59,357 nucleotides of DNA from an uncultured Ignavibacteriaceae bacterium (GTDB taxonomy: Bacteria; Zixibacteria; MSB-5A5; GN15; PGXB01). Location of the stretch: contig CAZMWI010000001.1 of the NCBI GenBank assembly GCA_964569945.1, positions 23,565 to 82,921 on the forward strand. The letters are read 5' to 3'. The notes below the pieces were generated by a model. That model had not been told where the DNA came from. It made no database searches and was given only the letters and a program-made list of their open reading frames with translations. Below are positions 6,019 to 46,893 of this stretch, piece by piece. A program made the translations under genes and the position numbers. How positions within the stretch are numbered: position 1 is the stretch's first letter; each line of letters starts with the position of its first letter.

Positions 6019-8751
6019 TCAGGGGATGAAAAAGCAGGGATCATCACCTTCACCATATATAGTGTCTATCAGGTATAGTATATCAAGCAGGTTGAGAGTA
6101 CCATCGCAGTTGACGTCGCCCATTGCAGGCGGTGTCGGGTCCGGGCCGTCCCCGTATATGGCGTCGATCAGGAACAGAATATCAATCAGGTTAAGCGTGC
6201 CGGAATAATCAACGTCGCCGGACATAATCGGGTTGATCGCATTGTTTCCGAACCGTACCGCCGACCCATCGGTGACTATATGGCCCGACGGTATGCCGGC
6301 CTGTACGAAATCCTCGAACCTGCATGGTCCGCCGCTCAGGCCTATTAATGCGGTCGAGGCCAGGCCGGAGATGCCGACCGATTGGAACTGAGCGTTTATA
6401 TCTCCGTCGCTCGTAAGTATAACCTCGAAGGACGTCAGGGTGTCCAGTGAATTATTGAAGTTGCCCATTTGATACCAGAGAATGATAACGGAATCATTGG
6501 TCGGGCTGTTGTAACGATAGATATCGCCATGCCCGGTGCTGAGTTCCGCCGCTTCGATCACGAGGTCGTTCCAGAATACCGGGATAAAAGTCTGGAATGG
6601 AGTATCATCAAGGGAGAACCCGGAGTAATAACCGTTGGAGTTTACTTCGGCATCGGTGAACGATATGGCCCCGTTGACGCCGATATAAACCTGGTTGTAT
6701 GTCTGACCGTAATAGTTGAAATCAAAGGGCAGGGGGTATGGTCCAGCGGTGCCGTCGTCGAGGCGGGCGGAATAGTCATAGGAATTGTAGTATTGAGTAC
6801 GTGGGATAATACCCCCGATAGTCGTAATGTCTATCCAGTTGTACTGTGGGCCGTCGACGTCATTATTATCGGTTGCAGTATACGTGGTGTCCTCGGTGCA
6901 CGGCACGGTGAAAAATACCGGCAGATATGCGAGCGAATCGAGCGATCCACCCGATGGGCCCCAGGATATTTCGATAATTCCCTTGTGTCTGGCAAAACCT
7001 TCTGGAAATCCAGACGCGTCGATAGTTATACCAAGGTCGACCGAATCCGAAGCCGCGATCTGTCCCGACAGGGGAGACGCGCCCAGCCAGCTTGAGGATT
7101 TGGCCAGGCTGTCCGGAATATTAATCGTGAAATCGAGCGGGTTCGAGCCAGAGCCGTTGTGCAGCCAGGCAGTCAGGTTGTTCACCGATTCGGCCACCAC
7201 CGCCGTATCGAAATAGATCGGCGTTACGGATAGCGACGGGGGAGGAGCGATCGTTGCGAATGCGGCCTGCAAGTCGGGCCGGGGGCCTATGTGCTGGGTT
7301 ATATTGAACTGCTGAGGGGAGCCGGTTGCTATCAGAACGTCGCGTAAGTAATCCGCGCCGGCCGGAACACCGTAGGCGTTTTTATAATATCCCTGAAGGC
7401 AGGTAGCCGCACCCATCACAATCGGCGATGCGCCCGAGGTGCCGGCGAATTCCGCCGTATATTCCTGATTGGGATCGCCGCCGCCGTCGAATAAAGAGCC
7501 GTAACCGGTCGTGTAAATCTCTTCGCCCTGTCCCTGAAGATTGACTCTTTCACCATAATTCGACCAGCTCATGCGAGAGCGATCAATTCCCGACGTGCCC
7601 GTGGGCGGAGCCCCGCCGCCGACCATTATGGCGTGGGAATTGCGATACGTCGTATCGAACAGCTGGCCATAAAGATGCGCGTCAAGGTCTTCGGCGCCGT
7701 TGCCGGCCGGTTCGATAACTATCATTCCGGCCGCCCAGGCGTATTGATAAGCATCGAATACATCCTGCCAGTATTCCATGCAGACATAGCCAAGCTGGTC
7801 TTGTCTTACCTGGAAATTATACCTCGGACCCGGCGCGTGCAGCTCTATCAGCATCAGGTCGCCCGGCTGCATATGGTCGAGGGCCAGAAAGACACCGGCG
7901 GCTATGCTCATCGCCGTAACCGAAATCAAACCAAGGTCGGCACCAGGACAAATTCCGGTCACACCATAGCCGTTGTCTCCGGCGATCATTTCGCCGATGA
8001 CGGCTGTTCCGTGCTGGCCGTAACTTCCCCCTTCGGGCGTTATGACTGCCCCGACGGCCTTGTCGAGGTCTTCATGGTTTTCGGTCCATGCGTATTCAAT
8101 GTCGATTATTTTAACCCCTGTACCGTCACCGCCCGGTTGAGAGTTGGCATACACGGCATCGATTCCGTCGGGAGCAGTATACAGGTAGTATTGGTTCGGT
8201 TCAAAATCGGGCGTCGGCGGAGCGATATCCCCGGCCTCTTCCGGGACTGGCTGAGGGTAAGCGATTTCTACCATATCAAGTTGATTTAAATCATTGACCA
8301 GTTTTTCGGCCTCGGCCGAACCGGAAACATCTATTGTATAATACAAACTGAAATCGGCCAACTCGCGGCCCGATGACGCTTCAAGTGACGCTTTAAGATT
8401 CTTGAGGAACTTATTGGGTCTGTTGATTAACGGTTTCTTGAAATCTTTCGCCGATGAGCCCAAGGCGCTTCTTAATTGCGTCAGATCAGATTTATTCGCC
8501 GCAGAAACGAATTCATTCCCGCTGAGCTGTATGTCAAGACCTTCTTTGAATTTCACTATGACTTTCGATGTATTGGCCTCGGACGAGACGCTTATATTTG
8601 AAGGTTTGTCGGGGACGCGCCGCGCCTTCAGATGATCCGGTGTGATGGGTTTATTGTCCGCATGAAATGTCATGGCCGGGGCGGAAACCGCCGCCATAAA
8701 TATTAAAGACAATATCAAAGATATCAGTCGTGGCAGATTTTTGGCTGTCAA
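6019..8751 (-). CDS. Secreted subtilisin-like (S8) serine protease with a large beta-rich middle region and a C-terminal dockerin
   Basis: The N-terminal signal peptide is LISLILSLIFMAAVSAPA. Catalytic motifs are VKIIDIE (Asp), HGTAVIGEM (His) and GTSGASPIV (Ser). A propeptide-like VIVKFKEG segment is present. The C-terminus carries two dockerin repeats. Confidence 0.9.
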   Translation of the reverse strand: MTAKNLPRLISLILSLIFMAAVSAPAMTFHADNKPITPDHLKARRVPDKPSNISVSSEANTSKVIVKFKEGLDIQLSGNEFVSAANKSDLTQLRSALGSSAKDFKKPLINRPNKFLKNLKASLEASSGRELADFSLYYTIDVSGSAEAEKLVNDLNQLDMVEIAYPQPVPEEAGDIAPPTPDFEPNQYYLYTAPDGIDAVYANSQPGGDGTGVKIIDIEYAWTENHEDLDKAVGAVITPEGGSYGQHGTAVIGEMIAGDNGYGVTGICPGADLGLISVTAMSIAAGVFLALDHMQPGDLMLIELHAPGPRYNFQVRQDQLGYVCMEYWQDVFDAYQYAWAAGMIVIEPAGNGAEDLDAHLYGQLFDTTYRNSHAIMVGGGAPPTGTSGIDRSRMSWSNYGERVNLQGQGEEIYTTGYGSLFDGGGDPNQEYTAEFAGTSGASPIVMGAATCLQGYYKNAYGVPAGADYLRDVLIATGSPQQFNITQHIGPRPDLQAAFATIAPPPSLSVTPIYFDTAVVAESVNNLTAWLHNGSGSNPLDFTINIPDSLAKSSSWLGASPLSGQIAASDSVDLGITIDASGFPEGFARHKGIIEISWGPSGGSLDSLAYLPVFFTVPCTEDTTYTATDNNDVDGPQYNWIDITTIGGIIPRTQYYNSYDYSARLDDGTAGPYPLPFDFNYYGQTYNQVYIGVNGAISFTDAEVNSNGYYSGFSLDDTPFQTFIPVFWNDLVIEAAELSTGHGDIYRYNSPTNDSVIILWYQMGNFNNSLDTLTSFEVILTSDGDINAQFQSVGISGLASTALIGLSGGPCRFEDFVQAGIPSGHIVTDGSAVRFGNNAINPIMSGDVDYSGTLNLIDILFLIDAIYGDGPDPTPPAMGDVNCDGTLNLLDILYLIDTIYGEGDDPCFFIP
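6040..6219 (-). other. Dockerin type-I-like module (two Ca-binding repeats) at the C-terminus of the S8 protease
   Basis: The duplicated EF-hand-like segments GDVDYSGTLNLIDILFLIDAIYG and GDVNCDGTLNLLDILYLIDTIYG are characteristic of dockerins. Confidence 0.8.
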
Positions 8752-13679: not shown

Positions 13680-13812
13680 TTTCGCAGGATTACACGGATG
13701 TTTTTGATTGAATCAAGACGTCCCGTGTATTAGATAGATATAAATTGATGGAAACGTCCCGAATTTCATAAATTAATAGGCGGACAATGCCTGAAAACTC
13801 AAGAGGTGAGGC

Positions 13813-14352: not shown

Positions 14353-14409
14353 GTTGGTTGCGGCCTTTGCCGCCGGGTAGAATTATTTAAAATTAGAGAG
14401 TAATAAGTT

Positions 14410-15858: not shown

Positions 15859-15859
15859 T

Positions 15860-16018: not shown

Positions 16019-16069
16019 TATTATGCGCGATAATTTAAGGATGGGCAATTGATTACGAGGTAACGACCG

Positions 16070-16573: not shown

Positions 16574-16579
16574 GGCTTT

Positions 16580-16687
16580 ATGACCTGGGTTTGTAGTGTC
16601 TGCGGTTATCCGCACGAAGGAGAAAAGCCGCCGGTATCGTGTCCGGTTTGCAACGCTCCCGAAGACAAGTTCGAAAAAGCCGGATAA
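16580..16687 (+). CDS. Rubredoxin-like CxxC...CxxC zinc/iron-ribbon mini-protein (35 aa), equivalent to the C-terminal domain of rubrerythrin
   Basis: The product is MTWVCSVCGYPHEGEKPPVSCPVCNAPEDKFEKAG. GGAGGA lies 10 nt upstream of the ATG. It is absent from the ORF track because it is under 60 aa. It is in the same frame as the upstream diiron ORF. Confidence 0.7.
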   Translation: MTWVCSVCGYPHEGEKPPVSCPVCNAPEDKFEKAG

Positions 16688-16697
16688 GGGAAAAGTA

Positions 16698-17186
16698 ATG
16701 ATCATATTCGGCAAGGTGAAAGTCGGGAAAAAGGCGCCCGATTTCAGTCTCCCCACGCATATTGGCGGGCGGATCAAACTTTCTGATTTTGTTGGCAAGA
16801 AGAATGTCCTGATCGCGTTTTATCCTCTCGATTATACCCCTGTTTGCAGCAACCAGATGCCCAGCTATGAGAATCAACTGAAAGATTTCGAGGATCTTAA
16901 TACGGTCATACTCGGTATTTCTTCCGATTCCATCCCAGCCCATCAATCGTGGTCCAAATCTATCGGCGGGATTTCTTTCAACCTGCTTTCCGACTTCTGG
17001 CCGCACGGTGAGGTGGCGCGCAAGTACGGAGTTTTTCTCGATGATAAAGGCATCGCGGACAGGTATATTTTCGTCGTCGATCGCGAAGGAATCGTCCGCT
17101 ACATAGAGCATGTCGGTCTGCTGAATATCCCCGATAATAGTAAAGTGCTGACGTTCCTGAAATCGTTGGAAAATGGGCAGCAGTAA
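16698..17186 (+). CDS. Peroxiredoxin (AhpC/TSA, Bcp-like thiol peroxidase)
   Basis: Contains KAPDFSLP and the peroxidatic Cys motif FYPLDYTPVCSNQ. I prefer the ATG at 16698 (MIIFGKVKVGKK) because the ORF-track start at 16596 overlaps the rubredoxin-like ORF and encodes an Arg/Lys/Ser-rich N-terminal extension that does not look like part of a peroxiredoxin. Confidence 0.88.
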   Translation: MIIFGKVKVGKKAPDFSLPTHIGGRIKLSDFVGKKNVLIAFYPLDYTPVCSNQMPSYENQLKDFEDLNTVILGISSDSIPAHQSWSKSIGGISFNLLSDFWPHGEVARKYGVFLDDKGIADRYIFVVDREGIVRYIEHVGLLNIPDNSKVLTFLKSLENGQQ

Positions 17187-29867: not shown

Positions 29868-32800
29868 TTATTTTAGCAGAAGCATTTTTCTGCTTCGCAC
29901 TTTGTCACCGGCGGATATCCGGTAGAAATATATGCCCGAGGCCGCTTCATTTCCGTGATTATCGCGGCCGTTCCATTGGATCGAATGATTTCCCGCCTTT
30001 TGGAATTCATCGACAAGTTTTATAACGCGTCGACCGAGTATGTTGTAAATATCGATTTGCACGTCGGCCGAACGCGGGAGCGAATATGTGATAGTTGTAG
30101 TCGGGTTAAATGGGTTGGGATAGTTCTGGTGCAGCACGAATCGGTCGGGAATTATTTTCGAAGGATCATCGACGCCGGTTGGATGATCGTCCATTATGGC
30201 GGAAAATAGAGCGGCGCTCTGGGAGCGGGGAAGGTACCACGGATGAAAACCAAAAGCGTAAATCGGGCGACCGTAGGCATTGAACCTGATGCCGCAGGGA
30301 AATCCCTCGAACAATGAAGTCTGCGGCGATACGGCCTCGTACGTGTATATAGCTTCCGCTCCGCCGCGCGGGTACATGACCGCCGTTTGCGGGGGAGTGG
30401 CATAGGGCCAGAAAGTCGTCTGCTGAGCAGGGAAATTCCACCAATCGTAAGTCGTGTCAACCTGCAGGTTATCGAAGGCCGTTGTTAGCGCCGTCGTACC
30501 GACAAAGCCGCCGATAGTATCGACGCCATTGCCGATCATATGATTGAAATACAGTCCAACGCCGTTAGTGAACACCGAATCCAGCCCGAAAAGGTCGTAT
30601 TCTTTCGAGCCCGGGCTGAAGCGCCGTGTTAACGTATCAAGACCGTATGGAACAACGGCGTTCGCGAAATTTCCGAAATAGATAACTGTCCCGCCGGAGC
30701 GGATATAATCCCGGAGTATTTTATTAAACGGCACTATGAAATTGTACCGGTCGATAATCGGCTTCAGGAGATTTTCGTCGATAACGACGAATCTGTACGG
30801 CGCCATCGCCGACCATGAAAAACATTCTTTGTTGAGACATACGTCGTGACATCCGTCATTATCGCAAATGTACCCCTGAGCAGAGTCGGCCATAATGAAA
30901 TAGTCAACGGTAAAATCGGATAGAACGTCGTTGTAATAGTTTATCACCGTATCGATCGATTCTAAATTCCGGTCGTCACCGGTATTTTCGAGCAGAATTA
31001 AAATATCGTTGGGCATGTAGCTGGTGGCATATATCGGAATCGATCTCGACGTGTCCGACTCCTGCCCGGCGTCGTCGACGGCCGTCACCAGGTAGTACAA
31101 TTCGGCGTCGGTAATCGGGTCGGTTAAAATTGTATCCGGCGCAGAAACCTGTGCGTACGGTGCCACGCCGTAAAAATAATATCGGGCAGTGTCATCCCCG
31201 TTAACTATCACGTGCAGACTGTCGTACGGACGCCCGTCGATGGGTCGGGTCGTAATGCGGGGTTTGTATCTTAACGAATAATCGTAGGCGCCTATATATC
31301 GATAGATATTGTAATGATCGATGTCGTCCAGCGGGGGCGGGGTCCAGTGTATAGTAACCTCATCGACATTGCCGATATAGGTCGGGCCGGGTTGAGTCAC
31401 CGGGGCCTCGGGAGTGCCGGGTGTGAAATATCGGGGCCGCGACCGGGGCGATTCCGAAAAGAAATTGACGGCCGTAACCGAGACGAAATAAGTCTGACCG
31501 TCTGTCAGCCCGTCTAAAGCATATGAGGTGTCCGTAACCGGACCGTTGGTGTTGGCCAGTGTCATGCCGGCTGTGTCGACGTCGTAGCGATAGACGGTAT
31601 CCCTGAATATAACCTGGCTGTCCGGTACCGGTTTGATATAGACATTGTATCCTTCGATATCGACGTTGTTTTTGGGCAGCCACGAAATTTCGGCCGACGT
31701 CTGTCCGGTTTCGGTGATTTGCAGCCCCTGGATTTCGCCGGGCCGCAGGGCCAGGGCGTAATCTGATTCATAAAGCAGCCGGGCCGCCCGGAAATTTTCG
31801 ATCAGGTCGCTGAAATCGAGCGTGCCGTAAAAATTGGCCGGATTTTGGTAGTCAAAGCGGTTATGATAATCCCAGGGATTCTGGTGAACATCCCGCCCGG
31901 CTGTAAAAGCCACAACGACATGGACCGAGTCGCCGGGTGCAATCTGGTAGGGGCCGTACCCGATTACGAATCTGGTATCAATGCCTATGGCCAAAGTTGG
32001 GCCGCTTGTTCCTGCAGGAAGCCAGCCCGAATCGGAATTAATAACGGCCGCAAACATCTGATCATAGTCGATTTCATCGTTAGACATTAAATAATATCTG
32101 TCGTTGGCGTTGATAGGATTGCCCAGTTCGCCGTCGGCCATATAACGCGGCTCCTGAGGAGGGTTCCCAAGATACTGGGGGCCGTAATTGGGCGAGATTC
32201 GATCCCACCAATTGAACGATGTGTCGGCCGCGGGCGGGTCGGAATAAACCAGACCGGCTCCGATGGCGCCGCGGATACTGTTGTCATCCCACGAAACATT
32301 GTTATGCGGGTCGCCGTCGTTATCCATAATATACGCTATCCCCTCAGAACGGATGTACCCGGCCAAATCATCAGAATATCCAAGAGGAGTGTTGCTGTCC
32401 ATTACATCCGCATCGACATACAGCCCCACATATGCATCCTGGATCGGAGCCTCACCGATATTGGTTATTTCCAGTTCCACAAGTATGAAATTATCATTTG
32501 GGGAATATGTCCAGCTTCTGGATGTTTCCGTAACGTGGATGCTGTTTAACTTGCGGAAATCCGGCTCCTGCCAGACCGGCGGGGGGAAGTTGTCATCGTA
32601 TTCGGCCTTAAACTGCTTGTCTCCCGGTCCACTGACCAATGTTACCGATCCACCGCTGTCGACCGGCAGATAATGACTACCGCTGTAATATGCATCGGAC
32701 ATACCCATCGAGACAAGGGTGTCACCATTGATAACCCCACCTACCCAGAGCCCGGCCCCCCAAAGGTATGAATGCCTGCTGCCTCTCGGGAAAGTGAAGG

Positions 32801-33089
32801 TTCTCAGTGCCCGGCCGGTTTCAGGATCAATGCTTATTGACATATTCGATCCGCCGAAATTCCCGACACTCGTAACCGTCATCTCGACCCCACCGATGGA
32901 ATGAAATCCGACCGGTTGCGGCCAATGTGTATCGTTTTGATTGGCCGAAAGCGACGTCTGTGGCATGCCGCGGTTTTCGGCTTCTTCATAAGGGCCAACA
33001 TTGCCGCTTATGGCTTCAACCCGTGCTGCAAACACCAACAAAACGATGCATATTATACCAACAAAAGGAAGATAGCGAATAACCTTCAA
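29868..33089 (-). CDS. Large secreted protein with fibronectin-III-like modules and a T9SS type-A C-terminal sorting domain; function unknown
   Basis: A 1073-aa protein with signal peptide VGIICIVLLVFAARVEA. FN3-like segments include GLQITETGQTSAEISWLPKNNVDIEGYNVYIKP and VTIHWTPPPLDDIDHYNIYRY. The C-terminal tail is LHQNYPNPFNPTTTITYSL...SGIYFYRISAGDKVRSRKMLLLK. Confidence 0.85.
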   Translation of the reverse strand: MKVIRYLPFVGIICIVLLVFAARVEAISGNVGPYEEAENRGMPQTSLSANQNDTHWPQPVGFHSIGGVEMTVTSVGNFGGSNMSISIDPETGRALRTFTFPRGSRHSYLWGAGLWVGGVINGDTLVSMGMSDAYYSGSHYLPVDSGGSVTLVSGPGDKQFKAEYDDNFPPPVWQEPDFRKLNSIHVTETSRSWTYSPNDNFILVELEITNIGEAPIQDAYVGLYVDADVMDSNTPLGYSDDLAGYIRSEGIAYIMDNDGDPHNNVSWDDNSIRGAIGAGLVYSDPPAADTSFNWWDRISPNYGPQYLGNPPQEPRYMADGELGNPINANDRYYLMSNDEIDYDQMFAAVINSDSGWLPAGTSGPTLAIGIDTRFVIGYGPYQIAPGDSVHVVVAFTAGRDVHQNPWDYHNRFDYQNPANFYGTLDFSDLIENFRAARLLYESDYALALRPGEIQGLQITETGQTSAEISWLPKNNVDIEGYNVYIKPVPDSQVIFRDTVYRYDVDTAGMTLANTNGPVTDTSYALDGLTDGQTYFVSVTAVNFFSESPRSRPRYFTPGTPEAPVTQPGPTYIGNVDEVTIHWTPPPLDDIDHYNIYRYIGAYDYSLRYKPRITTRPIDGRPYDSLHVIVNGDDTARYYFYGVAPYAQVSAPDTILTDPITDAELYYLVTAVDDAGQESDTSRSIPIYATSYMPNDILILLENTGDDRNLESIDTVINYYNDVLSDFTVDYFIMADSAQGYICDNDGCHDVCLNKECFSWSAMAPYRFVVIDENLLKPIIDRYNFIVPFNKILRDYIRSGGTVIYFGNFANAVVPYGLDTLTRRFSPGSKEYDLFGLDSVFTNGVGLYFNHMIGNGVDTIGGFVGTTALTTAFDNLQVDTTYDWWNFPAQQTTFWPYATPPQTAVMYPRGGAEAIYTYEAVSPQTSLFEGFPCGIRFNAYGRPIYAFGFHPWYLPRSQSAALFSAIMDDHPTGVDDPSKIIPDRFVLHQNYPNPFNPTTTITYSLPRSADVQIDIYNILGRRVIKLVDEFQKAGNHSIQWNGRDNHGNEAASGIYFYRISAGDKVRSRKMLLLK
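29871..30140 (-). other. T9SS type-A (Por secretion) C-terminal sorting domain
   Basis: The NYPNPFNP...G.Y.YR......K(M/L)..(L)K pattern covers the last ~90 aa. Confidence 0.8.
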
Positions 33090-33638: not shown

Positions 33639-33831
33639 AAAGTGACTTTCTTTAGTTTACTACGTACTGGTACTTGCGAGTTAAATGCCTCATCGAGATT
33701 TAGAATCGGGCAAGTGAGAACACATTTGCAAAGACATGGTTTTCTACCCGAGAGAGGAACGTCAATGTTACGATATAATGGCGCGAAACTCTGTACCGGC
33801 ACTTTTCCACAAATATGTTTCTGGAGGAAAA

Positions 33832-36800
33832 ATGCGTTTGAATAGGCATTTGCATTCTATAGCACTCATTTTCGCCATATCCTTATTCGCCTTACCCTCA
33901 CTAACCTTAGCGGAAACGCCCCCCGTCGGGCCCATTTTTGAACCAATTGTCACGCCGGATACGATACTGATTTGCAGCGGGGGGACTATATTCGACACGG
34001 TGCGTGTAACCGATGCCAACCTGACCCAGACGATTACCATCACCAAGGAATCCGGGCCGGGGACATTCAACTCCACGCCGTCGGTGTCTCCTGCGGAAGG
34101 GTACTTTGAATATACTCCGGAGACGACCGGCAGCTTCGACGTCGTATACAAAGCCGTTACGACCGACGGGAGCTTCGTCGAAGTAACCAAGACCTATGTT
34201 GTGATGGAAAACGTCCCGCCTCAGATTTTATCGGGCGATGCGACATTCTACAAGTGCTGGACCGGTACCGTAGTTTTGTTCCCTCTGGAGATGTACGATC
34301 CGGACAGCGACAGCCTTACGGTTAACGTATTGGAAGGCGGGGCATGGTATGATTATCAGCGTAAGGGCCTGGCCTTTTACGTCCAGAATGCCGGCGTTTA
34401 TTGTTTCAAGATTGAAGTCGCCGATGAATGCAGCGCTGATACGGCCGATATATGCCTGACGCTCGAAGACAACGATCCTCCTTATATCAACGGATTTACG
34501 CAAAAATATTATGTCTGCTCAGGTGAAGAGATCTGCTTTGACGTGAACGCGATCGACCCCGAAAATGACAGCCTGGTAATAACGCAGATTCAGGGACCGG
34601 GTACGTTTACCCAGATTGATAATAATACAGGGCGGAGCTGTTTTTATCCTGACGCGGCCGACTCGGCCGATTATGTGTTCGTTTATGAGTCCGCCGACTC
34701 CTGCCGGGGCGCTTTCGCTGACGGTAAGACGGCCTGGCCGCCGGGTCCACAGGACACGGTTATCATTACGGTCATTCAAACTCAGGGTTTGACTCTGGAC
34801 TGCCCCAATGATACGACTATAAATCTGTGCGAGCCACAGACGGTCTGTATCCCCATTGGTGATGTGCCGTCCAATGCCACGATAACTCTGACCCCCGAAA
34901 ATGTCACTTTCGACGACGTCAACGATGCCGTCTGTTTTGACGCAACCACGACTGAGTCGATTTCCATAAAATTTGTTGCTGAGAACAGCTGCGGGAAAGA
35001 CAGCTGCGAATTCAACGTCGATGTCAACATGAACTCGGCGCCGTACGTAACTTTCGGCGACGATTTCCAGGTTACGCAGTGTACTCCTGAAGAGATTTGT
35101 GTCCCGGTGGATTTTGGTGACGCCGATGGCAACGCCACCATAACTCAAATTCTTCCCGATGGTGCGTATTATAACGAACAGGATAACACGGTTTGCTTTA
35201 CGCCCACCGAATCCGGAGATTACACTGTCTCGATGACAGTAACCGATGATTGCCAGATTTCCGCTTCTGACGAAATAGTCGTAACGATTGACCTGGGACA
35301 CGCGCCGGTTGTTATATCGTCGCCCGACAGTTCTGTATTTCTGTGTGATCCGGTTCAGGTCTGTTTCCCGGTTTCGGTAACCGATCTCGATAATAACATC
35401 GCCAAAATCGATGTCATCGGTGCCGGCACTTACAGTAATGGGTACGTATGCTTTGCGGCGAATTTGCCCGGTATATATCAATTTTTTATAAAAGCAACCG
35501 ATGCATGCGGCGCAACTGATATTGATTCGACCACTATAACGGTTACACTTAATAGACCGCCTTCCATAACGGCTCCCGAAGATTACACCGTATTTCAGTG
35601 CCAGTATGAGGAAATTTGCTTCGACGTTGGATTTAGCGATCCGGATAATAATATAAAAATGGCGTCGGTTAGCGCCGGCACGTATGATGCGAACGCCGGT
35701 ACGGTCTGCTTTACGCCGACTCACGACGGTGATTATGCTTTCGATCTGGTCGTGACCGATTCTTGCTACGAGACGGCCTCGAAGACCGTCACCGTAACGG
35801 TACAGTCGGGCGATACGGCCGCGATAACTTGTCCGGACGGGGAGATATATAAGAACCTGTGCGGAGCCGGCACGATTTGTTACGATCTGCCGATAATGCC
35901 GTCCAACGCAACGGTCACCGTAGACGGCAGCGGTGCGGAATATGTCGATGGGCAAATTTGTTTCGATGTCACCGAATCAGGGACGTACGTGGTTGATGTA
36001 ACCGCCGAATCAGATTGCGGTACTGATCAATGCCAGTTGACTTTCGTGGTCGATGTCGGCACGCCTCCCGGGGTTGTTTGTCCCGACGACCAGACGGTAT
36101 CGATTTGCGAACCGGGTCTGGTTTGCCTTCCGTTGACCGTAGAACCGGCCGGAGCCCAGGTGACAGTTACACCGTCGGGTTATTACGAAAACGGCCAGAT
36201 TTGTTTTACGGCCGATCAATCCGGTGATTATCAGTTCAATGTAACAGCGACCACGGATTGCGGAGAGGCTTCGTGCTCTTTCACGGCCACGGTTAATATT
36301 AATTCCGCCCCCGAGATAACGACCACGGGTGGTGAATTTTTCGACTGCAATCCGGGACAGGAACATACAGTGACGATAGCCGCGTCCGATGCGGATAATG
36401 ATGATATTACATACAGCCTGCTTTCAGGCGATGGTACTCTTGACCCTGTCTCCGGGCAGTTAACCTTTACGCCTCAAATTGCGGGTGAATATTGTTTTAC
36501 GATAGAAGCCGCCGACCAGTGCGGTGCCGATACTGCCGAAGTTTGTTACACTATCGGTCTGAATTCTCTGCCGACGGTTTCCGCACCGGCCGATACGTCG
36601 GTTATCGCGTGTTCCGTGAGTGAAATTTGCATTCCGGTCGAAGTCGCCGACGTCGACGATAACATCTCATCGATAGACGTTTCCGCCGGCATTTACAATA
36701 ACGGTGAAATCTGTTTCTCGCCGCCGGGATCTGGTATTTATGATATCACGATTACGGTAACTGACGATTGCGGCGAACAGGCGACGTCCACGACGGTCGT

Positions 36801-39800
36801 GACGGTCGATGTCAGCGAAGTGATGAATCTGGAATGCCCGGGCAATGATATAGCTTTTATTTGTGAGCCCGATACTTTCTGTTATCCGATCGGCGGCATC
36901 CCGACCGGCGCCACGGTAACGGTTTCGCCGTCGTCGGCCTGGTTCGATTATGAAACCAGTTCGGTTTGCTTCTACACAAACTGTACCGTGGTAAAAAACT
37001 TGAAAGTCGTAGTTCAGGGAGAATGCAGTACCGACAGCTGCATGTTTACTTCTATGGTCGGCTTGAACCGCGCGCCGTTGGTTATCAGTGCTCCCGATAC
37101 AACCGTGCGGTTATGCCTGCCTCAGGAAATTTGTGTCTCGGTCGGCGTCATGGATTTTGACGGCAACGGTGATACGGTCGTAGTATCGGATGGGGCCGCG
37201 TATAATTCAATAACCGGCAAGGTTTGTTTCACTCCGACAGAATCGGGAGTATATCCAATAATTACCCGCGCCATTGACCAGTGCGGTTTGTATGACGACG
37301 ACACGACGATCGTGACCGTTATTATGAATGAACCTCCCGTCGTCAATGCCGGTGACGATTTCAGCGTCTTCCAGTGTGATTTCGAGCAGGTATGCTTCCC
37401 CGTGGATATCACCGACGACAATAACGCCATCACGAGCGTTACGGTATCGTCGGGCGGGCATTATGATGAGCAAACCGGTGAGGTTTGTTTCACGCCCGAT
37501 CATGAAGGGGTCTACACTATTACGATTACGGCTTACGACGCCTGCGGCGAAGTCGCCAGTGACGCGATTAACGTGACCGTAACGAAGAACGCGCCGCCGG
37601 TTGTAGTTTCGGCTCCTGACAGCAGCTTGCTTGTCTGCGCCCTGCAGGAAATATGTTTCGCCGTGGACGTTTCCGATATTAACGGGAATATCGATACTGT
37701 CACCGTAAACAATGGCGGCGTTTATGCCGACGGTTTGGTGTGCTTCACCCCGGCGACAGCCGGAACCTATTATATGATTATTACCGCCACAGATGAATGT
37801 GGTGCCGTTGATAAAGATACTACGAAGATCGTGGTCAAACTGAATTCCGCTCCGGAGATACAATCAGCGGCGGACTTCGAAGAATTCCAGTGCGATTTCG
37901 ATCAAATTTGTTTTGCCGTATCGGCTTCAGACATGGACGGCAACCTGGCTTCGATTACGACCGATGTCGGTATTTATGACTCGCAGTCAGGACTTATTTG
38001 TTTCACTCCCGACAGCGCGGGTGTGTATATCATCACCGCCACCGCGACCGATGAATGCGGCTTGATGGCGACGTCGACGACTACCGTCACCGTGACGACC
38101 GGGCCGAGCGCTTCCATAACCTGCCCGACCGAACCGTTCGACCGTTTCATTTGTCAGGAACAGGAAGTCTGTGTCCCGCTAGAAATCACTCCGCCCGACG
38201 CCGAGGTAACGGTATCGCAGGGAACATTTGCCGACGGGCAATTGTGTCTTACGGTATCGGAACAAAAGGTCTACACTGTCCGGGTTATTGCCGACGCCGT
38301 TTGCGGCAGCGATACCTGTTTTGTCGATATAAATGTCACCCTTGGCGCTCCGGCCCAGCTGACCTGCCCGGCCGATACTTCGGTCTTCCTTTGTGAACCG
38401 TCGCAGATTTGTCGTACGGTTGGCGTCATGCCTCCCGAAGCGAGCGTCACGGTTTCGCCGATCGGCACATATGAAAACGGAACGGTCTGCTTCGACGCCG
38501 ATACCGCCGGTCATTATGAAATTACCGTCTCGGCCGATATGGAATGCGGGTCAGATGAATGCACCTTTGCGGTCGACGTGGCGTTCAACTCGGCTCCCAC
38601 GGTCGATGCGGGGCAGGATAATTCTTACTTCCAATGTACTTTTGAAGAAATTTGTCAACCGGTTACGATTGCGGATATAGACGACAATATCGAACAGGTG
38701 CTCGTTTCGCCGACCGGTTATTATAATTCGGAAACCGGCAACGTATGCTTCACGCCTGAAGACGTCGGTGAGTACTGCCTTGAAATCAAAGCTATCGACG
38801 AGTGCGGACTCAGCGCGACCGATACGATTTGCATTGAAGTCACAACCGGCGATACCGCATTAATAGATTGCCCGGCGCAGCCGTACGAAGTCCATCTTTG
38901 CGAGCCGGGGGACATTTGTATACCGTTCAATTTCACTCCCGAGACGGCCGTGATTTCTGTCTCAATGGGTACATATTCCAACGGCCAGATATGCTTCAAT
39001 GCGCAAGCCGAGGGTGAATACAATATCCGGGCGATAGCCGCCGGTACCTGCGCGTCGGATACCTGTGACATAACGGTCAACGTGGTTTTCGATGACTATG
39101 CCGAGATTACCTGTCCGACCCTACCGATATCGTCCACCCTTTGTGGACCGGACTCCGTCTATGTGCCTCTGTTTATCAATCCCCCGGGAGTGCAGGTGGT
39201 TATAACTCCGGACGCCGTATACAACGGAACCAATCATACCCTGGCTTTTAAGGCCAATGAGAGCGGTACATTCAATTTCAAAGTGATCGCGACGGCCCCG
39301 TGCAGCGCCGATACCTGCAATATCCAGGTTAACGTCCTGATCAACAGCATCCCCGAGTTAACCTGTCCGGGTGACATCGATACGCTGGTTTGCCTGCAAG
39401 ACGTCGATGAGATTTGTTTCCCGGTTACGGCTACCGGTTCGGGATTGACGTTTAAGATTCTGCCCGAGGGGACTTACAGCGGGGGACAGGTTTGCGTACC
39501 GATCACACAGGGAGGAAGTTTCGATTTCAAGATCATCGCGACCAACACGTGCGGCGCCGATACGTGCAACATGAACATTAACGTAGCCGCCAATCAGGCT
39601 CCCGATTTCACGGTTCCGGAAGAGGTACTCATACCCTGGTGCGAGGATGACCAGGGCACTATTTGTGTCGACGGCATTTTTGCGAGCGATCCTGAAAATG
39701 ACGATATAACCATCACTCAAACCTGCGGCCTTGGCCTGCTGGATCTCATTCGGCCCGACAGTGGTCAACTCTGTTTCGATCCGACCACGTTTGATACGAC

Positions 39801-41382
39801 CTATTCGTTCTGTTTCACCGCCGACGATGGCTGCAATACCATTGAAAAATCATTTGACGTCGTACTTTATCCTTCGGCCCAGTGCTCCGTCTGCGTCGTG
39901 ACGTCGATTGAAACCGATTCCTGCTATATTGTCGGATCTCGCGTCCCGGTGCATATAACCGCTCAAAGTCGAGGCGAAATTGGCGGCTTCGATATACTTC
40001 TGGCTTTCGATAATTCGGTTATGAGTTTCGCCGGTGCCAACAAAGGCTCGGATATTTCCGGTTGGGAATACTTTACATATGCATCCGGCGCTGACGGTCC
40101 TTGTATAGGATGTCCCGCCGGACTACTTCGATTGGTTGGGATAGCTGATGTCAACAACGGTCCGAATCATCCGCCCGAAGATCAGTATATGGTTGATGGT
40201 GAGATCGCCAGGGTAATTATGCAGGTTTCTGCGGATCAAAATATTGGTGGTCAATACCTGCCGATATCGTACTTCTGGTACGATTGCGGCGACAATGGAT
40301 TTTCCGATCGCGACGGAAATGAATTTTACACGGATTTGAGAATATATAACAGCTCCGGTCACTTGAAATGGGACGAATACGACGAAATACACTTCCCGGA
40401 GACTAACCGCATATTCGGTACCGGAGTCCCTGATACGTGTTTGACCGGTGATAAGATTATTCCTTCAAGATGCATTGAATTTTATGACGGCGGCATCTGC
40501 GTCAAGAGCCCCGATGAGATAGACGATCGTGGTGATCTGAATCTCAACGGAATTGCCTATGAAATCGCGGACGCCGTGGTCTTTACCAACTACTTCATCT
40601 ATGGTTTTGCGGCCTTCACCGTCAATGTTGACGGCCAGATCGCAGCTTCCGACGTTAATGCCGACGGACGCGCCCTTTCGGTTGCCGACCTTGTGTACCT
40701 GATACGAGTGATTGTCGGCGACGCCAATCCGTTCCCGAAACCGGTGCCGTGCGGCGAAAGTGTTATGGTGCAGACCGACAATGAAGACAACGTCCTGTCG
40801 GTCAATCTCGACACCCGTTACGACCTCGGTGCGGGCCTGTTCGTGTTCGAATACGACGGGGTCAATCCCAATGTTCCCGAACTGATTGACGTTCCGGCCG
40901 GAATGGAAATGCAATATGATATAAAGCAGTCTGAGGTCAGGGTGCTCGTCTACAGCATGCAAAAAGGCGTTATGATCGACGCTGGAAACAGCACTTTACT
41001 TCGGGTTCCGTACATGGGCAGCGGATCTCTCAAACTCAAGGAGGCCGAATTCGCTACGTATGAAGGCCAGTCTATTGCGAGCAGTTTCGGCAAGACGCAG
41101 GTCCCGCAGGAGTTCGAGGTTTCCCAGAACTACCCGAACCCGTTCAACCCGATGACGCAGATTAATATGAATTTGCCGTCCTACGGAGCCTGGAAACTGA
41201 CCGTCATCAACATCGCCGGCCAGGTTGTTAAGAGTTTCGAGGGCGAATCCCCGGCAGGTATTGTGTCGGTGCAGTGGAACGGTAACAATGATGCCGGACA
41301 ACCCGTTGCTTCAGGCGTATATTTCTACCGCGCCGAATTCGCCGACCAAAAACAAACGAAGAAGATGATTATGCTAAAATAA
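33832..41382 (+). CDS. Giant (~2516 aa) secreted modular surface protein: ~23 Cys-rich Ig-like modules, a cohesin-like domain, a dockerin and a T9SS type-A sorting domain
   Basis: I prefer the ATG at 33832 because GGAGG lies 5-9 nt upstream and it gives the signal peptide MRLNRHLHSIALIFAISLFALPSLTLA. The ORF-track start at 33736 adds a sequence that does not resemble a signal peptide. The frame is continuously open, with repeated C...ICxPV...VCFTP..GxY...A.D.CG modules. Confidence 0.9.
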   Translation: MRLNRHLHSIALIFAISLFALPSLTLAETPPVGPIFEPIVTPDTILICSGGTIFDTVRVTDANLTQTITITKESGPGTFNSTPSVSPAEGYFEYTPETTGSFDVVYKAVTTDGSFVEVTKTYVVMENVPPQILSGDATFYKCWTGTVVLFPLEMYDPDSDSLTVNVLEGGAWYDYQRKGLAFYVQNAGVYCFKIEVADECSADTADICLTLEDNDPPYINGFTQKYYVCSGEEICFDVNAIDPENDSLVITQIQGPGTFTQIDNNTGRSCFYPDAADSADYVFVYESADSCRGAFADGKTAWPPGPQDTVIITVIQTQGLTLDCPNDTTINLCEPQTVCIPIGDVPSNATITLTPENVTFDDVNDAVCFDATTTESISIKFVAENSCGKDSCEFNVDVNMNSAPYVTFGDDFQVTQCTPEEICVPVDFGDADGNATITQILPDGAYYNEQDNTVCFTPTESGDYTVSMTVTDDCQISASDEIVVTIDLGHAPVVISSPDSSVFLCDPVQVCFPVSVTDLDNNIAKIDVIGAGTYSNGYVCFAANLPGIYQFFIKATDACGATDIDSTTITVTLNRPPSITAPEDYTVFQCQYEEICFDVGFSDPDNNIKMASVSAGTYDANAGTVCFTPTHDGDYAFDLVVTDSCYETASKTVTVTVQSGDTAAITCPDGEIYKNLCGAGTICYDLPIMPSNATVTVDGSGAEYVDGQICFDVTESGTYVVDVTAESDCGTDQCQLTFVVDVGTPPGVVCPDDQTVSICEPGLVCLPLTVEPAGAQVTVTPSGYYENGQICFTADQSGDYQFNVTATTDCGEASCSFTATVNINSAPEITTTGGEFFDCNPGQEHTVTIAASDADNDDITYSLLSGDGTLDPVSGQLTFTPQIAGEYCFTIEAADQCGADTAEVCYTIGLNSLPTVSAPADTSVIACSVSEICIPVEVADVDDNISSIDVSAGIYNNGEICFSPPGSGIYDITITVTDDCGEQATSTTVVTVDVSEVMNLECPGNDIAFICEPDTFCYPIGGIPTGATVTVSPSSAWFDYETSSVCFYTNCTVVKNLKVVVQGECSTDSCMFTSMVGLNRAPLVISAPDTTVRLCLPQEICVSVGVMDFDGNGDTVVVSDGAAYNSITGKVCFTPTESGVYPIITRAIDQCGLYDDDTTIVTVIMNEPPVVNAGDDFSVFQCDFEQVCFPVDITDDNNAITSVTVSSGGHYDEQTGEVCFTPDHEGVYTITITAYDACGEVASDAINVTVTKNAPPVVVSAPDSSLLVCALQEICFAVDVSDINGNIDTVTVNNGGVYADGLVCFTPATAGTYYMIITATDECGAVDKDTTKIVVKLNSAPEIQSAADFEEFQCDFDQICFAVSASDMDGNLASITTDVGIYDSQSGLICFTPDSAGVYIITATATDECGLMATSTTTVTVTTGPSASITCPTEPFDRFICQEQEVCVPLEITPPDAEVTVSQGTFADGQLCLTVSEQKVYTVRVIADAVCGSDTCFVDINVTLGAPAQLTCPADTSVFLCEPSQICRTVGVMPPEASVTVSPIGTYENGTVCFDADTAGHYEITVSADMECGSDECTFAVDVAFNSAPTVDAGQDNSYFQCTFEEICQPVTIADIDDNIEQVLVSPTGYYNSETGNVCFTPEDVGEYCLEIKAIDECGLSATDTICIEVTTGDTALIDCPAQPYEVHLCEPGDICIPFNFTPETAVISVSMGTYSNGQICFNAQAEGEYNIRAIAAGTCASDTCDITVNVVFDDYAEITCPTLPISSTLCGPDSVYVPLFINPPGVQVVITPDAVYNGTNHTLAFKANESGTFNFKVIATAPCSADTCNIQVNVLINSIPELTCPGDIDTLVCLQDVDEICFPVTATGSGLTFKILPEGTYSGGQVCVPITQGGSFDFKIIATNTCGADTCNMNINVAANQAPDFTVPEEVLIPWCEDDQGTICVDGIFASDPENDDITITQTCGLGLLDLIRPDSGQLCFDPTTFDTTYSFCFTADDGCNTIEKSFDVVLYPSAQCSVCVVTSIETDSCYIVGSRVPVHITAQSRGEIGGFDILLAFDNSVMSFAGANKGSDISGWEYFTYASGADGPCIGCPAGLLRLVGIADVNNGPNHPPEDQYMVDGEIARVIMQVSADQNIGGQYLPISYFWYDCGDNGFSDRDGNEFYTDLRIYNSSGHLKWDEYDEIHFPETNRIFGTGVPDTCLTGDKIIPSRCIEFYDGGICVKSPDEIDDRGDLNLNGIAYEIADAVVFTNYFIYGFAAFTVNVDGQIAASDVNADGRALSVADLVYLIRVIVGDANPFPKPVPCGESVMVQTDNEDNVLSVNLDTRYDLGAGLFVFEYDGVNPNVPELIDVPAGMEMQYDIKQSEVRVLVYSMQKGVMIDAGNSTLLRVPYMGSGSLKLKEAEFATYEGQSIASSFGKTQVPQEFEVSQNYPNPFNPMTQINMNLPSYGAWKLTVINIAGQVVKSFEGESPAGIVSVQWNGNNDAGQPVASGVYFYRAEFADQKQTKKMIMLK
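33913..39870 (+). repeat. Array of about 23 tandem, divergent protein modules of ~80-100 aa (protein-level repeats, not identical DNA repeats)
   Basis: The signature (V/I)CF(T/D)P..(S/A)G.Y recurs about 23 times, for example VCFTPTESGDYTV, VCFTPTHDGDYAF, ICFTADQSGDYQF, VCFTPDHEGVYTI and ICFTPDSAGVYII. Two module flavours are interspersed: one with D.D.NI, one with P..A.VTVSP.G.Y.NG. Confidence 0.8.
39883..40350 (+). other. Cohesin-like beta-sandwich module
   Basis: The segment VGSRVPVHITAQSRGEIGGFDILLAFDNSVMSFAGANKGSDISGWEYFTY...LLRLVGIADVNNG...IARVIMQVSADQ matches the ...V.V.V.....I.GFD.L..YD.S.(L/M).F....G... pattern of cohesin domains. This is by-eye recognition only. Confidence 0.5.
40531..40725 (+). 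other. Dockerin module (two Ca-binding repeats)
   Basis: GDLNLNGIAYEIADAVVFTNYFIYG is followed by a linker and then SDVNADGRALSVADLVYLIRVIVGD. Confidence 0.75.
41104..41379 (+). other. T9SS type-A C-terminal sorting domain
   Basis: The sequence is FEVSQNYPNPFNPMTQINMNLP...VSVQWNGNNDAGQPVASGVYFYRAEFADQKQTKKMIMLK. Confidence 0.8.
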
Positions 41383-46200: not shown

Positions 46201-46893
46201 GCGGTTGATGTACAACTCCCAGCCGCGAAGCTCGGTCGAAAGCTCCTGATAGCGCTCGGCTTTCTTCATCTGTCTGCGCAGCGAATTAACCTGCGTGGTG
46301 ACTTCGGATACGATATCCTGCAGACGAAGCAGATCCTGCTCGGTCGATTCGAGTTTTCTCAGTGCCGCTTTTTTGCGGCTTTTATATTTAGATATGCCGG
46401 CGGCTTCTTCGAACAGGAAGCGGCGGTCATCGGTACGATCCGACAGTATGGCATCGACCATGTCCTGCTGGATCATCGAATATATATGTGCCCCGATACC
46501 GGTATCCATCAGAAGCTCGGTGATGTCTTTCAGGCGACAGGGGACTTTGTTCAGAAGATATTCTGATTCGCCCGATCGGAACAGCCGTCGGGTGATCTGG
46601 ACTTCGCCGTACTCGGTCGGCAGAATCCCACGGTTGTTTTGTATGACCAGCGTAATCTCGGCCATCCCGAGCGGTTTCAGGTCGCGTGTGCCGTTGAATA
46701 TGATCTCTTCCATTTTCGTGCCACGCAACAGCGATACCCGCTGTTCACCCAGCACCCAGCGTATGGCATCGAGTATGTTGCTTTTGCCGCATCCGTTCGG
46801 CCCGACCACGGCCGTCACGCCCGGAGTCAGTTTGATAACCGTCTTTTCGGGAAAAGATTTAAAACCGAGCAATTCCAGTCTTTTTAAATACAC
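43232..46893 (-). pseudogene. smc: Chromosome segregation protein SMC, interrupted by a reading-frame change near 45670-45691 (frameshift mutation or assembly error)
   Basis: The N-terminal head (GPNGCGKSN) and coiled coil read in one frame down to ...LEGLLSAGKSD. A plausible coiled coil (RYQDSELTAKLSEYSANLDALNARRQDLQAKQ...), the hinge and the C-terminal head (LSGGERALTA, ILDEIDAPLD) continue in the -1 frame, which is open from 45691 to 43232. The original frame degenerates into an Arg/Ser/Thr/Pro-rich tail and stops at 45418. Confidence 0.85.

What the first reader, a model, noticed from the sequence alone, without database searches (positions are those of the whole stretch)
39883..40725. 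Cohesin-like and dockerin modules on the same T9SS-anchored polypeptide: a possible non-cellulosomal assembly system
**Seen in the sequence**
Directly after the repeat stalk comes a ~155-aa segment with the cohesin-like pattern (...VPVHITAQSRGEIGGFDILLAFDNSVMSFAGANKG...). A two-repeat dockerin follows (40531-40725), then a ~120-aa beta-rich spacer and the T9SS sorting domain. A second dockerin lies 25 kb away on the S8 protease.

**Established knowledge**
Cohesin-dockerin pairs mediate high-affinity protein assembly. T9SS type-A CTDs lead to covalent attachment of cargo to the cell surface in Bacteroidota.

**Inference**
The giant protein could polymerise head-to-tail, with the dockerin of one copy binding the cohesin of another. 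It could also act as a scaffold displaying the dockerin-tagged protease. A T9SS-anchored cohesin scaffold of this kind has not, to my knowledge, been characterised.
Basis: partly seen in the sequence, partly recalled or inferred. Interest (0 to 1): 0.7.

Follow-up and report, generated by a model that had tools for sequence, protein, structure and literature searches.

The report
Cohesin–dockerin–cohesin surface cassette in Zixibacteria
The tail of a giant surface protein from a Zixibacteria genome carries a real cohesin fold, a divergent dockerin, a previously unnoticed second cohesin fold and a type IX secretion anchor; this four-part cassette is shared by well over a thousand unannotated proteins and looks like a cellulosome-style protein-assembly kit in a Gram-negative candidate phylum.

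Summary
The 2548-aa ORF (33736-41382, +) ends in four modules.

- **CohA (39895-40503):** a cohesin fold. AF2 pLDDT is 90.5, and the top 42 Foldseek PDB hits are all cohesins.
- **Doc\* (40519-40725):** a divergent dockerin. Pfam scores it below threshold, but hhalign gives 94% probability against canonical dockerins. Both Ca loops are 13 residues, not 12.
- **CohB (40759-41088):** The best hit is the A. fulgidus non-cellulosomal cohesin 2xdh.
- **CTD (41131-41379):** a T9SS type A sorting domain (TIGR04183, 44.9 bits).

The cassette is not a one-off. It defines a family of at least 1300 clusters at 50% identity, almost all from Zixibacteria. Forms include stand-alone proteins, tails of Ig-repeat giants, tandem (CohA-Doc\*-CohB)n arrays, scaffoldin-like runs of four free CohA, and variants ending in a canonical dockerin instead of the CTD.

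Coevolution analysis and AF2 (pTM 0.83) suggest Doc\* touches both flanking cohesins. Whether that contact is in cis or between copies is unresolved. Binding of the S8 protease dockerin is plausible but untested.

This is a new variant of a known kind. A T9SS-anchored cohesin scaffold was already proposed in silico for Cloacimonadota.

The parts
33736..41382 (+). Giant surface protein gene, 2548 aa. The likely true start is M33 at 33832, which precedes a Sec signal peptide (MRLNRHLHSIALIFAISLFALPSLTLA).
   Evidence: A 2546-aa orthologue with conserved synteny lies in Zixibacteria chromosome OY969724.1 (L001; cassette region 94% identical).
34500..39880 (+). Stalk of Ig-like repeats (PKD, Big_9, K319L-like PKD, cadherin-like). 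Boundaries are approximate.
   Evidence: Pfam hits.
39895..40503 (+). CohA: cohesin-fold beta-sandwich, aa 2054-2256. It carries Cys-rich insertions (GPCIGCPAG, YDCGDNGFSDRDG).
   Evidence: AF2 pLDDT 90.5. Foldseek top 42 PDB hits are all cohesins. Weak Pfam and PDB-profile cohesin hits. Family HMM scores 207 bits.
40519..40725 (+). Doc*: divergent dockerin, aa 2262-2330. Its two 13-residue EF-hand-like loops are D2267-D2279 (40534-40572) and D2306-D2318 (40651-40689). It has three predicted helices.
40726..40758 (+). Pro-rich linker (NPFPKPVPCGE). Its length varies across the family.
40759..41088 (+). CohB: second, compact cohesin-fold domain, aa 2342-2451.
   Evidence: AF2 pLDDT 89.5, pTM 0.77. 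Foldseek best hit is 2xdh, the A. fulgidus cohesin (E 3.8e-6); 38 of the top 40 hits are cohesins.
41131..41379 (+). T9SS type A C-terminal sorting domain, aa 2466-2548.
   Evidence: TIGR04183 44.9 bits against cutoff 23. FlgD_ig 37 bits; Por_Secre_tail 25-26 bits. PDB profile hit to 8glj_D.
6019..8751 (-). Secreted S8 subtilase, 910 aa, with a C-terminal canonical dockerin (aa 845-897, about 6061-6219). Its loops are 12 residues: DVDYSGTLNLID and DVNCDGTLNLLD.
29868..33089 (-). Divergently transcribed second T9SS cargo, 1073 aa, fn3 plus type A CTD. The same neighbour is conserved beside the giant gene in several Zixibacteria loci. It is not PorU.

Best explanation
The region is the cell-proximal end of a T9SS-secreted, Ig-repeat surface fibril. 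It consists of a conserved four-module cassette: CohA (cohesin fold), Doc* (divergent dockerin with 13-residue Ca loops), CohB (second cohesin fold) and a T9SS type A CTD.

Shown:
- the folds, as predictions;
- the homology of Doc* to dockerins;
- the validity of the CTD;
- that the cassette is the building block of a large, combinatorial, mostly Zixibacterial protein family. Its members include stand-alone anchors, tails of giants, tandem arrays, runs of free CohA, and adaptor-like forms ending in a canonical dockerin.

Inferred:
- After Sec export and T9SS transit the CTD is removed and the protein is linked to the outer-membrane surface. The cassette then sits next to the membrane with the stalk pointing outward.
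- Doc* is held between the two cohesin folds. Its first repeat and helix 1 lie against CohA. Its second repeat and helix 3 lie against the third strand of CohB.
- The result is either a closed intramolecular Coh-Doc-Coh unit or the same contacts exchanged between neighbouring copies.
- The family as a whole works as a Ca-dependent cohesin-dockerin assembly kit. It ties surface proteins together and probably recruits proteins carrying canonical dockerins, such as the S8 protease here and an M1 peptidase in a related genome.
For: Folds:
- CohA plus Doc* model: pLDDT 90.5, pTM 0.83. Cohesins fill the top 42 PDB hits.
- CohB model: pLDDT 89.5. 38 of the top 40 hits are cohesins.
- A PDB profile search gives many concordant weak cohesin hits and one dockerin hit.

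Dockerin homology:
- hhalign probability 94.4%.
- Positions D1, N3, N/D5 and D13 are invariant in both loops in 356-358 of 358 units.

CTD: TIGR04183, 44.9 bits.

Family size and spread:
- 464 hits in the word-indexed search.
- 1611, 1300 and 671 representatives at E<=1e-3, 1e-10 and 1e-30 in the exhaustive search.
- At least 569 stretches in GTDB species genomes. The best 80 are all giant ORFs ending CohA-Doc*-CohB-CTD, from MAGs mostly labelled Zixibacteria/Zixiibacteriota (the rest Ignavibacteria-type, FCB group or unclassified).

Architectures:
- CohA-Doc*-CohB-CTD in 201 of 268 proteins, plus tandem units, four-fold CohA runs and Doc*-CohB repeats.
- Members with a signal peptide and no payload, and members ending in a canonical dockerin.
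- P0187, the four-CohA adaptor form, and a giant CohA-Doc*-CohB-CTD protein occur in the same MAG.

Contacts:
- CohA-to-Doc* spacing is 14 residues in 332 of 358 units.
- Mean-field DCA on 346 units (Meff 319): 45 of the top 50 pairs are intradomain.
- The best Doc*-CohB patch (A2313/V2316/V2320 with G2365/A2366/F2369/V2370) has z=8.0 against the CohA-CohB background.
- The best CohA-Doc* patch has z=5.7.
- Four block-permutation nulls gave no inter-domain pair in the top 100.

Canonical dockerins on peptidases: S8 here and M1 in L040.
Against:
- Model coordinates and PAE were not available. CohA-Doc* packing rests on pTM and coevolution only.
- DCA used a shallow alignment (Meff about 319 for 385 columns). 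CohA-CohB pairs also exceed the permutation null, so some of the signal is phylogenetic.
- Coevolution cannot tell cis contacts from homotypic trans contacts.
- CohB has no detectable sequence similarity to CohA or to Pfam Cohesin. Its fold also resembles CBM2, though less well.
- Pfam thresholds for Cohesin and Dockerin_1 are not reached by the window sequence.
- T9SS machinery was not seen in the window.
Confidence: 0.55

Rival explanations
1. Doc* is free, and it binds the cohesin of another copy to give head-to-tail polymers. Alternatively or additionally, the cohesin is a free receptor that displays the dockerin-tagged S8 protease on the cell surface.
For: - Real cohesin and dockerin modules.
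- The coevolution signal is equally compatible with homotypic trans contacts.
- Runs of four CohA without matching Doc* show that CohA can exist unoccupied in cis.
- Payload-free anchored members resemble single-cohesin anchoring scaffoldins.
- Canonical dockerins of one subtype sit on the S8 protease, an M1 peptidase and adaptor-like family members.
- There is precedent: the R. bromii Amy4 dockerin recognises its own cohesin (PMC4611034).
Against: - AF2 places Doc* rigidly on its own CohA in the monomer (pTM 0.83).
- The 14-residue CohA-to-Doc* spacing is almost invariant, as expected for a fixed intramolecular pair.
- Doc* and the S8 dockerin are different subtypes.
- No interaction was tested.
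Confidence: 0.3
2. The cassette is only a rigid, Ca-stabilised pedestal between the stalk and the membrane anchor. Its cohesin-like and dockerin-like folds were co-opted as structural elements and have no external partners.
For: - Payloads are Ig-like repeats, not enzymes, in the 10 sampled members.
- The cassette always sits next to the CTD.
- A rigid CohA-Doc* unit is predicted.
- The Cys pattern is conserved, suggesting disulfide stabilisation.
Against: - Stand-alone signal peptide-cassette-CTD proteins have nothing to hold up.
- Free CohA arrays and members ending in canonical dockerins make sense only if modules bind in trans.
Confidence: 0.12
3. One or both beta-sandwiches are carbohydrate-binding modules that bind a glycan, such as the cell's own LPS or a substrate, rather than a dockerin.
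For: CohB also matches CBM2 and chitin-binding domains at E 2e-4 to 3e-3.
Against: - Cohesins outrank every CBM hit for both domains, with higher TM scores.
- The domains flank and coevolve with a dockerin.
- No CBM family hit appears in Pfam.
Confidence: 0.03

Closest known systems
Scaffoldin-like T9SS-CTD protein of Cloacimonadota 'Ca. Stygibacter' (in silico proposal, PMC8542988)
   Same: An FCB-group Gram-negative organism. A large non-catalytic protein carries cohesin domains and a T9SS C-terminal domain. Secreted enzymes with C-terminal dockerins include an S8/S53 peptidase.
   Different: That protein has tandem cohesins with CBM2/CBM3 and no internal dockerin. Here a dockerin sits between two unlike cohesin folds, payloads are Ig repeats, no CBM or CAZyme was seen, and the phylum differs. 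Neither system has been tested experimentally.
Clostridial and ruminococcal cellulosome scaffoldins (CipA, ScaA/ScaB; anchoring OlpA, OlpC, SdbA)
   Same: Cohesin fold, as these are the top Foldseek hits. Cohesins and a dockerin share one polypeptide. There are hierarchies of anchor, adaptor and dockerin-tagged enzyme. The 13-residue Ca loop has precedent in R. flavefaciens group 1 dockerins (PMC2930009).
   Different: Those systems are Gram-positive and anchored by SLH domains or sortase. Their scaffoldin dockerins do not bind their own cohesins. Here the anchor is a T9SS CTD, the dockerin is internal and flanked by cohesins, both loops have 13 residues, and sequences fall below Pfam thresholds.
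Ruminococcus bromii Amy4 (amylosome)
   Same: Cohesin and dockerin on the same protein, with the dockerin recognising its own cohesin, which allows self-aggregation (PMC4611034).
   Different: Amy4 is an amylase of a Gram-positive organism with one cohesin. There is no second cohesin, no T9SS, and the arrangement is not a repeated unit.
Archaeoglobus fulgidus non-cellulosomal cohesin (PDB 2xdh)
   Same: It is the best structural match to CohB (E 3.8e-6, TM 0.61-0.63). It is non-cellulosomal. From my own knowledge, not checked here, its parent protein also carries a dockerin.
   Different: It is archaeal, shares only 11% identity, and is not T9SS-linked.
Type II X-dockerin modules
   Same: A beta-sandwich module packed rigidly against a dockerin and inherited with it as a unit. 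This matches the Doc*-CohB repeats and the fixed CohA-to-Doc* spacing.
   Different: The X module is Ig-like, not a cohesin fold, and it precedes the dockerin. This analogy rests on my own knowledge and was not tested.

Membership tests
Cohesin (PF00963; nine-stranded jelly-roll beta-sandwich): CohA | Cohesin three-dimensional fold | tested here: met
   AF2 pLDDT 90.5. The top 42 Foldseek PDB hits are all cohesins, probability 1.0, target TM up to 0.78. This is a predicted structure, not an experimental one.
Cohesin (PF00963; nine-stranded jelly-roll beta-sandwich): CohA | Sequence match above the Pfam gathering score | tested here: not met
   15.5 bits against 24.1, and only model positions 7-56 of 139. 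Relatives reach 21-22 bits. One relative (P0118) has a precomputed PF00963 hit.
Cohesin fold: CohB | Cohesin three-dimensional fold | tested here: met
   AF2 pLDDT 89.5. Best hit is 2xdh; 38 of the top 40 hits are cohesins, TM about 0.5-0.64. There is no sequence-level support, so this is fold resemblance only.
Cohesin (functional definition) | Ca-dependent high-affinity binding of a dockerin | not testable with these tools
   Only indirect evidence: coevolution patches between Doc* and both sandwiches.
Dockerin type I (PF00404) | Duplicated segment of an EF-hand-like Ca loop plus a helix | tested here: met
   Two repeats with invariant D1, N3, N/D5 and terminal D. Three helices are predicted. 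hhalign to canonical dockerins gives 94.4%.
Dockerin type I (PF00404) | 12-residue Ca-binding loops and a Pfam score above the gathering threshold | tested here: not met
   Both loops have 13 residues in 356-358 of 358 family units. Pfam scores 13.6 bits against 22.9.
T9SS type A cargo | C-terminal type A sorting domain | tested here: met
   TIGR04183 44.9 bits against cutoff 23. The type B model TIGR04131 scores 13 against 35.
T9SS type A cargo | N-terminal Sec signal peptide | tested here: met
   Read directly from the sequence: MRLNRHLHSIALIFAISLFALPSLTLA from M33. No predictor was run.
T9SS type A cargo | T9SS machinery (SprA/Sov, PorU, PorV, GldKLMN) encoded in the genome | not tested
   None lies in the 59-kb window. 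The 1073-aa neighbour matches PorU only in its CTD. Presence is inferred from two CTD cargos in the window, hundreds in the family, and the reported FCB-wide distribution of T9SS (PMC11205867).
Cellulosome | Dockerin-bearing carbohydrate-active enzymes assembled on a cohesin scaffold | tested here: not met
   No CAZyme or CBM was found in the window or in the sampled family members. The dockerin-tagged proteins seen were S8 and M1 peptidases and an FG-GAP protein. The system is therefore cellulosome-like in logic, not a cellulosome.

The most novel reading that the evidence does not exclude
Zixibacteria possess a previously undescribed, T9SS-anchored cohesin-dockerin assembly system. Its basic unit is a single dockerin clamped between two unrelated cohesin folds, with each of the dockerin's two symmetric faces dedicated to a different cohesin. 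Combinatorial use of these modules would build a protein lattice at the outer-membrane surface. The modules are free CohA arrays, Doc*-CohB pairs, canonical-dockerin adaptors and dockerin-tagged peptidases. The lattice would carry long Ig-repeat fibrils and proteases.
Probability: 0.3. Interest if true: 0.8.

Novelty: new variant of a known kind. Interest (0 to 1): 0.62.

Why it matters
Cohesin-dockerin assembly has been studied almost entirely in Gram-positive cellulosome and amylosome producers.

A large, conserved and wholly unannotated family would extend the paradigm. It shows the same modules anchored through type IX secretion in an uncultured Gram-negative phylum, attached to adhesin-like fibrils and peptidases rather than cellulases.

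It would also give a concrete hypothesis for how Zixibacteria organise their cell surface. Divergent Coh/Doc pairs with 13-residue loops and Cys-stabilised cohesins could serve as orthogonal parts for designer scaffolds.

If the Coh-Doc-Coh triad is real as a structural unit, it would be a new way of using the two-fold symmetry of dockerins.

Tried and rejected
- **Single-sequence phmmer against PDB:** only a spurious adenylate cyclase hit. A profile and a structure model were needed.
- **Alignment A2:** aligning the spacer alone against full-length homologues misplaced its N-terminus. I rebuilt it from trimmed segments as A3.
- **CohA versus CohB profile comparison:** no similarity, so the idea that CohB is a recent duplicate of CohA is rejected.
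- **Is the 1073-aa divergent neighbour the T9SS sortase PorU?:** only its CTD matches, so the idea is rejected.
- **Other cohesin-like domains in the window:** none found.
- **Enzymatic payloads in the family:** none in the 10 sampled members, only Ig-like repeats.
- **Literature:** no paper in the library combines Zixibacteria with dockerin or type IX secretion. Peer et al. 2009 on non-cellulosomal cohesins is not held.
- **Complex prediction of S8 dockerin or Doc* with each cohesin:** not possible, because there were only two structure jobs, no multimer mode, and no coordinates or PAE were returned.


Full report
**1. The observation**

The finding lies in a single 2548-aa ORF, 33736-41382 on the + strand. 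A Sec-type signal peptide begins at M33. About 1700 aa of Ig-like repeats follow (PKD, Big_9, K319L-like PKD, cadherin-like).

Sequence-library support for the two key modules is weak:
- Pfam Cohesin scores 15.5 bits (E 0.02, model 7-56 of 139; gathering score 24.1).
- Pfam Dockerin_1 scores 13.6 bits (E 0.08; gathering score 22.9).
- Single-sequence phmmer against PDB sequences finds nothing relevant.

On sequence libraries alone, the observation would be only a hint.

**2. Structure-level test**

A search with aa 2040-2345 found 464 homologues. An AF2 model built on a 112-sequence alignment (A1) has mean pLDDT 90.5 and pTM 0.83.

Foldseek against the PDB returns cohesins in all of the top 42 places:
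- They include type I, type II and C. perfringens cohesins.
- The best E-value is 9e-8 and the probability is 1.0.
- Target-normalised TM reaches 0.78.

A profile of A1 against PDB sequences also gives a concordant set of weak cohesin hits (4dh2, 5lxv, 3ul4_A, 2jh2, 4ums) and one dockerin hit (3ul4_B).

The cohesin fold runs from aa 2054 to 2256 (39895-40503).

**3. The dockerin**

After a short linker, the model shows the three-helix pattern of a dockerin. The two repeats, DLNLNGIAYEIAD and DVNADGRALSVAD, have 13-residue loops. The S8 protease dockerin has the canonical 12 (DVDYSGTLNLID, DVNCDGTLNLLD).

- Across 358 family units, both loops have 13 residues in 356-358 cases. Positions 1, 3, 5 and 13 are essentially invariant D, N, N/D and D.
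- hhalign of the family Doc* profile against canonical dockerins gives 94.4% probability, E 8.9e-8. The canonical set was the S8 dockerin plus C-terminal dockerins of family members.
- 13-residue loops have precedent in functional R. flavefaciens group 1 dockerins (PMC2930009).

**4. The 'spacer' is a second cohesin fold**

I modelled aa 2331-2472 on a trimmed 50-sequence alignment (A3). The result was pLDDT 89.5 and pTM 0.77, all beta.

- The best PDB match is the non-cellulosomal cohesin of Archaeoglobus fulgidus (2xdh, E 3.8e-6, TM 0.61-0.63).
- 38 of the top 40 matches are cohesins. CBM2-type domains follow with lower TM.
- CohB has no profile similarity to CohA. This assignment is therefore by fold only.

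**5. The anchor**

The last 83 aa match the T9SS type A sorting domain: TIGR04183, 44.9 bits against a cutoff of 23. The full cassette is therefore CohA, Doc*, Pro-rich linker, CohB, CTD.

**6. It is a family, not a curiosity**

Size:
- The exhaustive search of 1.84 billion representatives found 1611, 1300 and 671 clusters at E<=1e-3, 1e-10 and 1e-30.

Architectures, from domain HMMs for CohA (A), Doc* (d), CohB (B) and CTD (T) applied to 268 members:
- AdBT occurs 201 times.
- Tandem (AdB)n-T occurs.
- Doc*-CohB repeats occur.
- Runs of full-length CohA without Doc* occur. Examples:
  - P0187: signal peptide, four CohA, Doc*, CohB, then a canonical dockerin.
  - P0122: Ig repeats, four CohA, then d-A-d-B-d-B-T.
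- Some members are just signal peptide plus cassette plus CTD (P0082).
- Others replace the CTD with a canonical dockerin (P0078, P0088, P0118).

Payloads in ten sampled members are Ig-like repeats or nothing.

Distribution:
- At least 569 stretches match in GTDB species genomes.
- The best 80 are all giant ORFs (about 880 to more than 3840 aa) ending AdBT.
- They come from MAGs mostly labelled Zixibacteria/Zixiibacteriota; many others are labelled Ignavibacteria-type and a few FCB group or unclassified.
- The closest is 94% identical over the cassette. It is a syntenic 2546-aa gene in chromosome OY969724.1.

Co-occurrence and neighbours:
- The four-CohA adaptor P0187 and a giant AdBT protein come from the same MAG.
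- Canonical dockerins occur on peptidases: S8 here and M1 next to the giant gene in L040.
- The divergent fn3 plus CTD neighbour of the giant gene is conserved in several loci.

**7. How the modules relate**

Three lines of evidence bear on this.

- **Fixed spacing.** CohA-to-Doc* spacing is 14 residues in 332 of 358 units. Doc*-to-CohB spacing varies from 26 to 51.
- **AF2 confidence.** A pTM of 0.83 for a 306-aa construct whose termini are disordered implies a confidently fixed CohA-Doc* orientation. This is an inference, because coordinates and PAE were not returned.
- **Coevolution.** I ran mean-field DCA on 346 non-redundant units (Meff 319).
  - 45 of the top 50 pairs are intradomain, which serves as a positive control.
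  - The strongest inter-domain cluster links one face of Doc* helix 3 (A2313, V2316, V2320, that is i, i+3, i+7) to the third strand of CohB (G2365, A2366, F2369, V2370) and M2390. The patch z is 8.0 against the CohA-CohB background.
  - A second cluster links CohA loops (G2135, F2189, D2191, N2169) to Doc* repeat 1 and helix 1 (I2273, Y2275, V2282), with z 5.7.
  - Four block-permutation nulls gave no inter-domain pair in the top 100.

Caveats:
- The alignment is shallow.
- CohA-CohB pairs also exceed the permutation null, which indicates phylogenetic signal.
- Coevolution cannot separate cis contacts from homotypic trans contacts.

**8. Interpretation**

The best-supported reading is a cell-proximal protein-assembly cassette in which Doc* is engaged by both flanking cohesin folds.

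The existence of free CohA arrays, payload-free anchors and canonical-dockerin adaptors argues that the family also makes trans connections, in the manner of anchor, adaptor and enzyme tiers in cellulosomes.

Whether the S8 dockerin binds this protein is open. It belongs to the same subtype as the adaptors' C-terminal dockerins (GDVNCDG...PC), but it is barely recognised by the Doc* HMM.

**9. Relation to what is known**

- Cohesin plus dockerin on one polypeptide is normal for scaffoldins.
- Self-recognition is documented for R. bromii Amy4 (PMC4611034).
- A T9SS-CTD cohesin scaffold with dockerin-tagged enzymes was proposed in silico for Cloacimonadota (PMC8542988).
- No paper in the searchable library links Zixibacteria with dockerins.

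The apparently new features are:
- the conserved Coh-Doc-Coh triad;
- the double 13-residue loops;
- the size and modular variety of the family;
- its restriction to Zixibacteria and close relatives.

I therefore rate it a new variant of a known kind.

**10. Limits**

- T9SS machinery genes are not in the window and could not be sought genome-wide.
- No interaction was modelled or measured.

Noticed in passing
window 43232-46893 (-): The SMC gene is split into two ORFs in different frames: 45418-46893 (N-terminal head, 491 aa) and 43232-45412 (hinge plus C-terminal head, 726 aa). The orthologue in L001 is one intact 1224-aa ORF (13380-17054). This is a probable frameshift, either an assembly error or a pseudogene.
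   Followed up: partly
window 29868-33089 (-); L002-L004, L043, L053, L059, L070, L072: A protein of about 1100 aa with fn3 and a T9SS type A CTD, otherwise unannotated, is transcribed divergently from the giant gene. It keeps that position in many Zixibacteria loci, which suggests a functional pair. It is not PorU.
   Followed up: partly
window 6019-8751 (-), aa ~620-840: Between the catalytic domain and the dockerin, the S8 protease has about 220 aa with no family hit. How a dockerin-tagged protein without a T9SS CTD crosses the outer membrane is unexplained.
   Followed up: no
window 33736-33831: The longest ORF starts 32 codons upstream of the Met that precedes the signal peptide (M33 at 33832). 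The annotated start is probably too early.
   Followed up: no
family members P0078, P0086, P0088, P0105, P0109, P0118, P0126, P0187, P0199, P0248; window S8 C-terminus: Canonical C-terminal dockerins in this lineage share a GDVNCDG second loop and end in a Pro-x-Pro-Cys or Cys-Pro motif, often with a Cys just before the first loop. This suggests a disulfide clasp across the dockerin.
   Followed up: no
window 49484-53701 (+): A 1405-aa fusion protein with two BcrAD/BadFG-type ATPase domains, DUF2229 and a 2-hydroxyglutaryl-CoA dehydratase D-like segment. It looks like an activator-type fusion.
   Followed up: no
L040 401-2662 (+); L056 52-2427 (-): In related Zixibacteria loci, the genes next to the giant gene encode an M1 peptidase with Dockerin_1 (39.6 bits) and an FG-GAP/Big_5 protein that matched my canonical-dockerin HMM.
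   Followed up: partly
locus titles (e.g. L002, L003, L005): Many MAGs carrying close orthologues, up to 79% identical in the cassette, are labelled Ignavibacteriaceae or Ignavibacteriales in ENA. The closest hit and most others are Zixibacteria, so the labels are probably taxonomic mislabelling.
   Followed up: no
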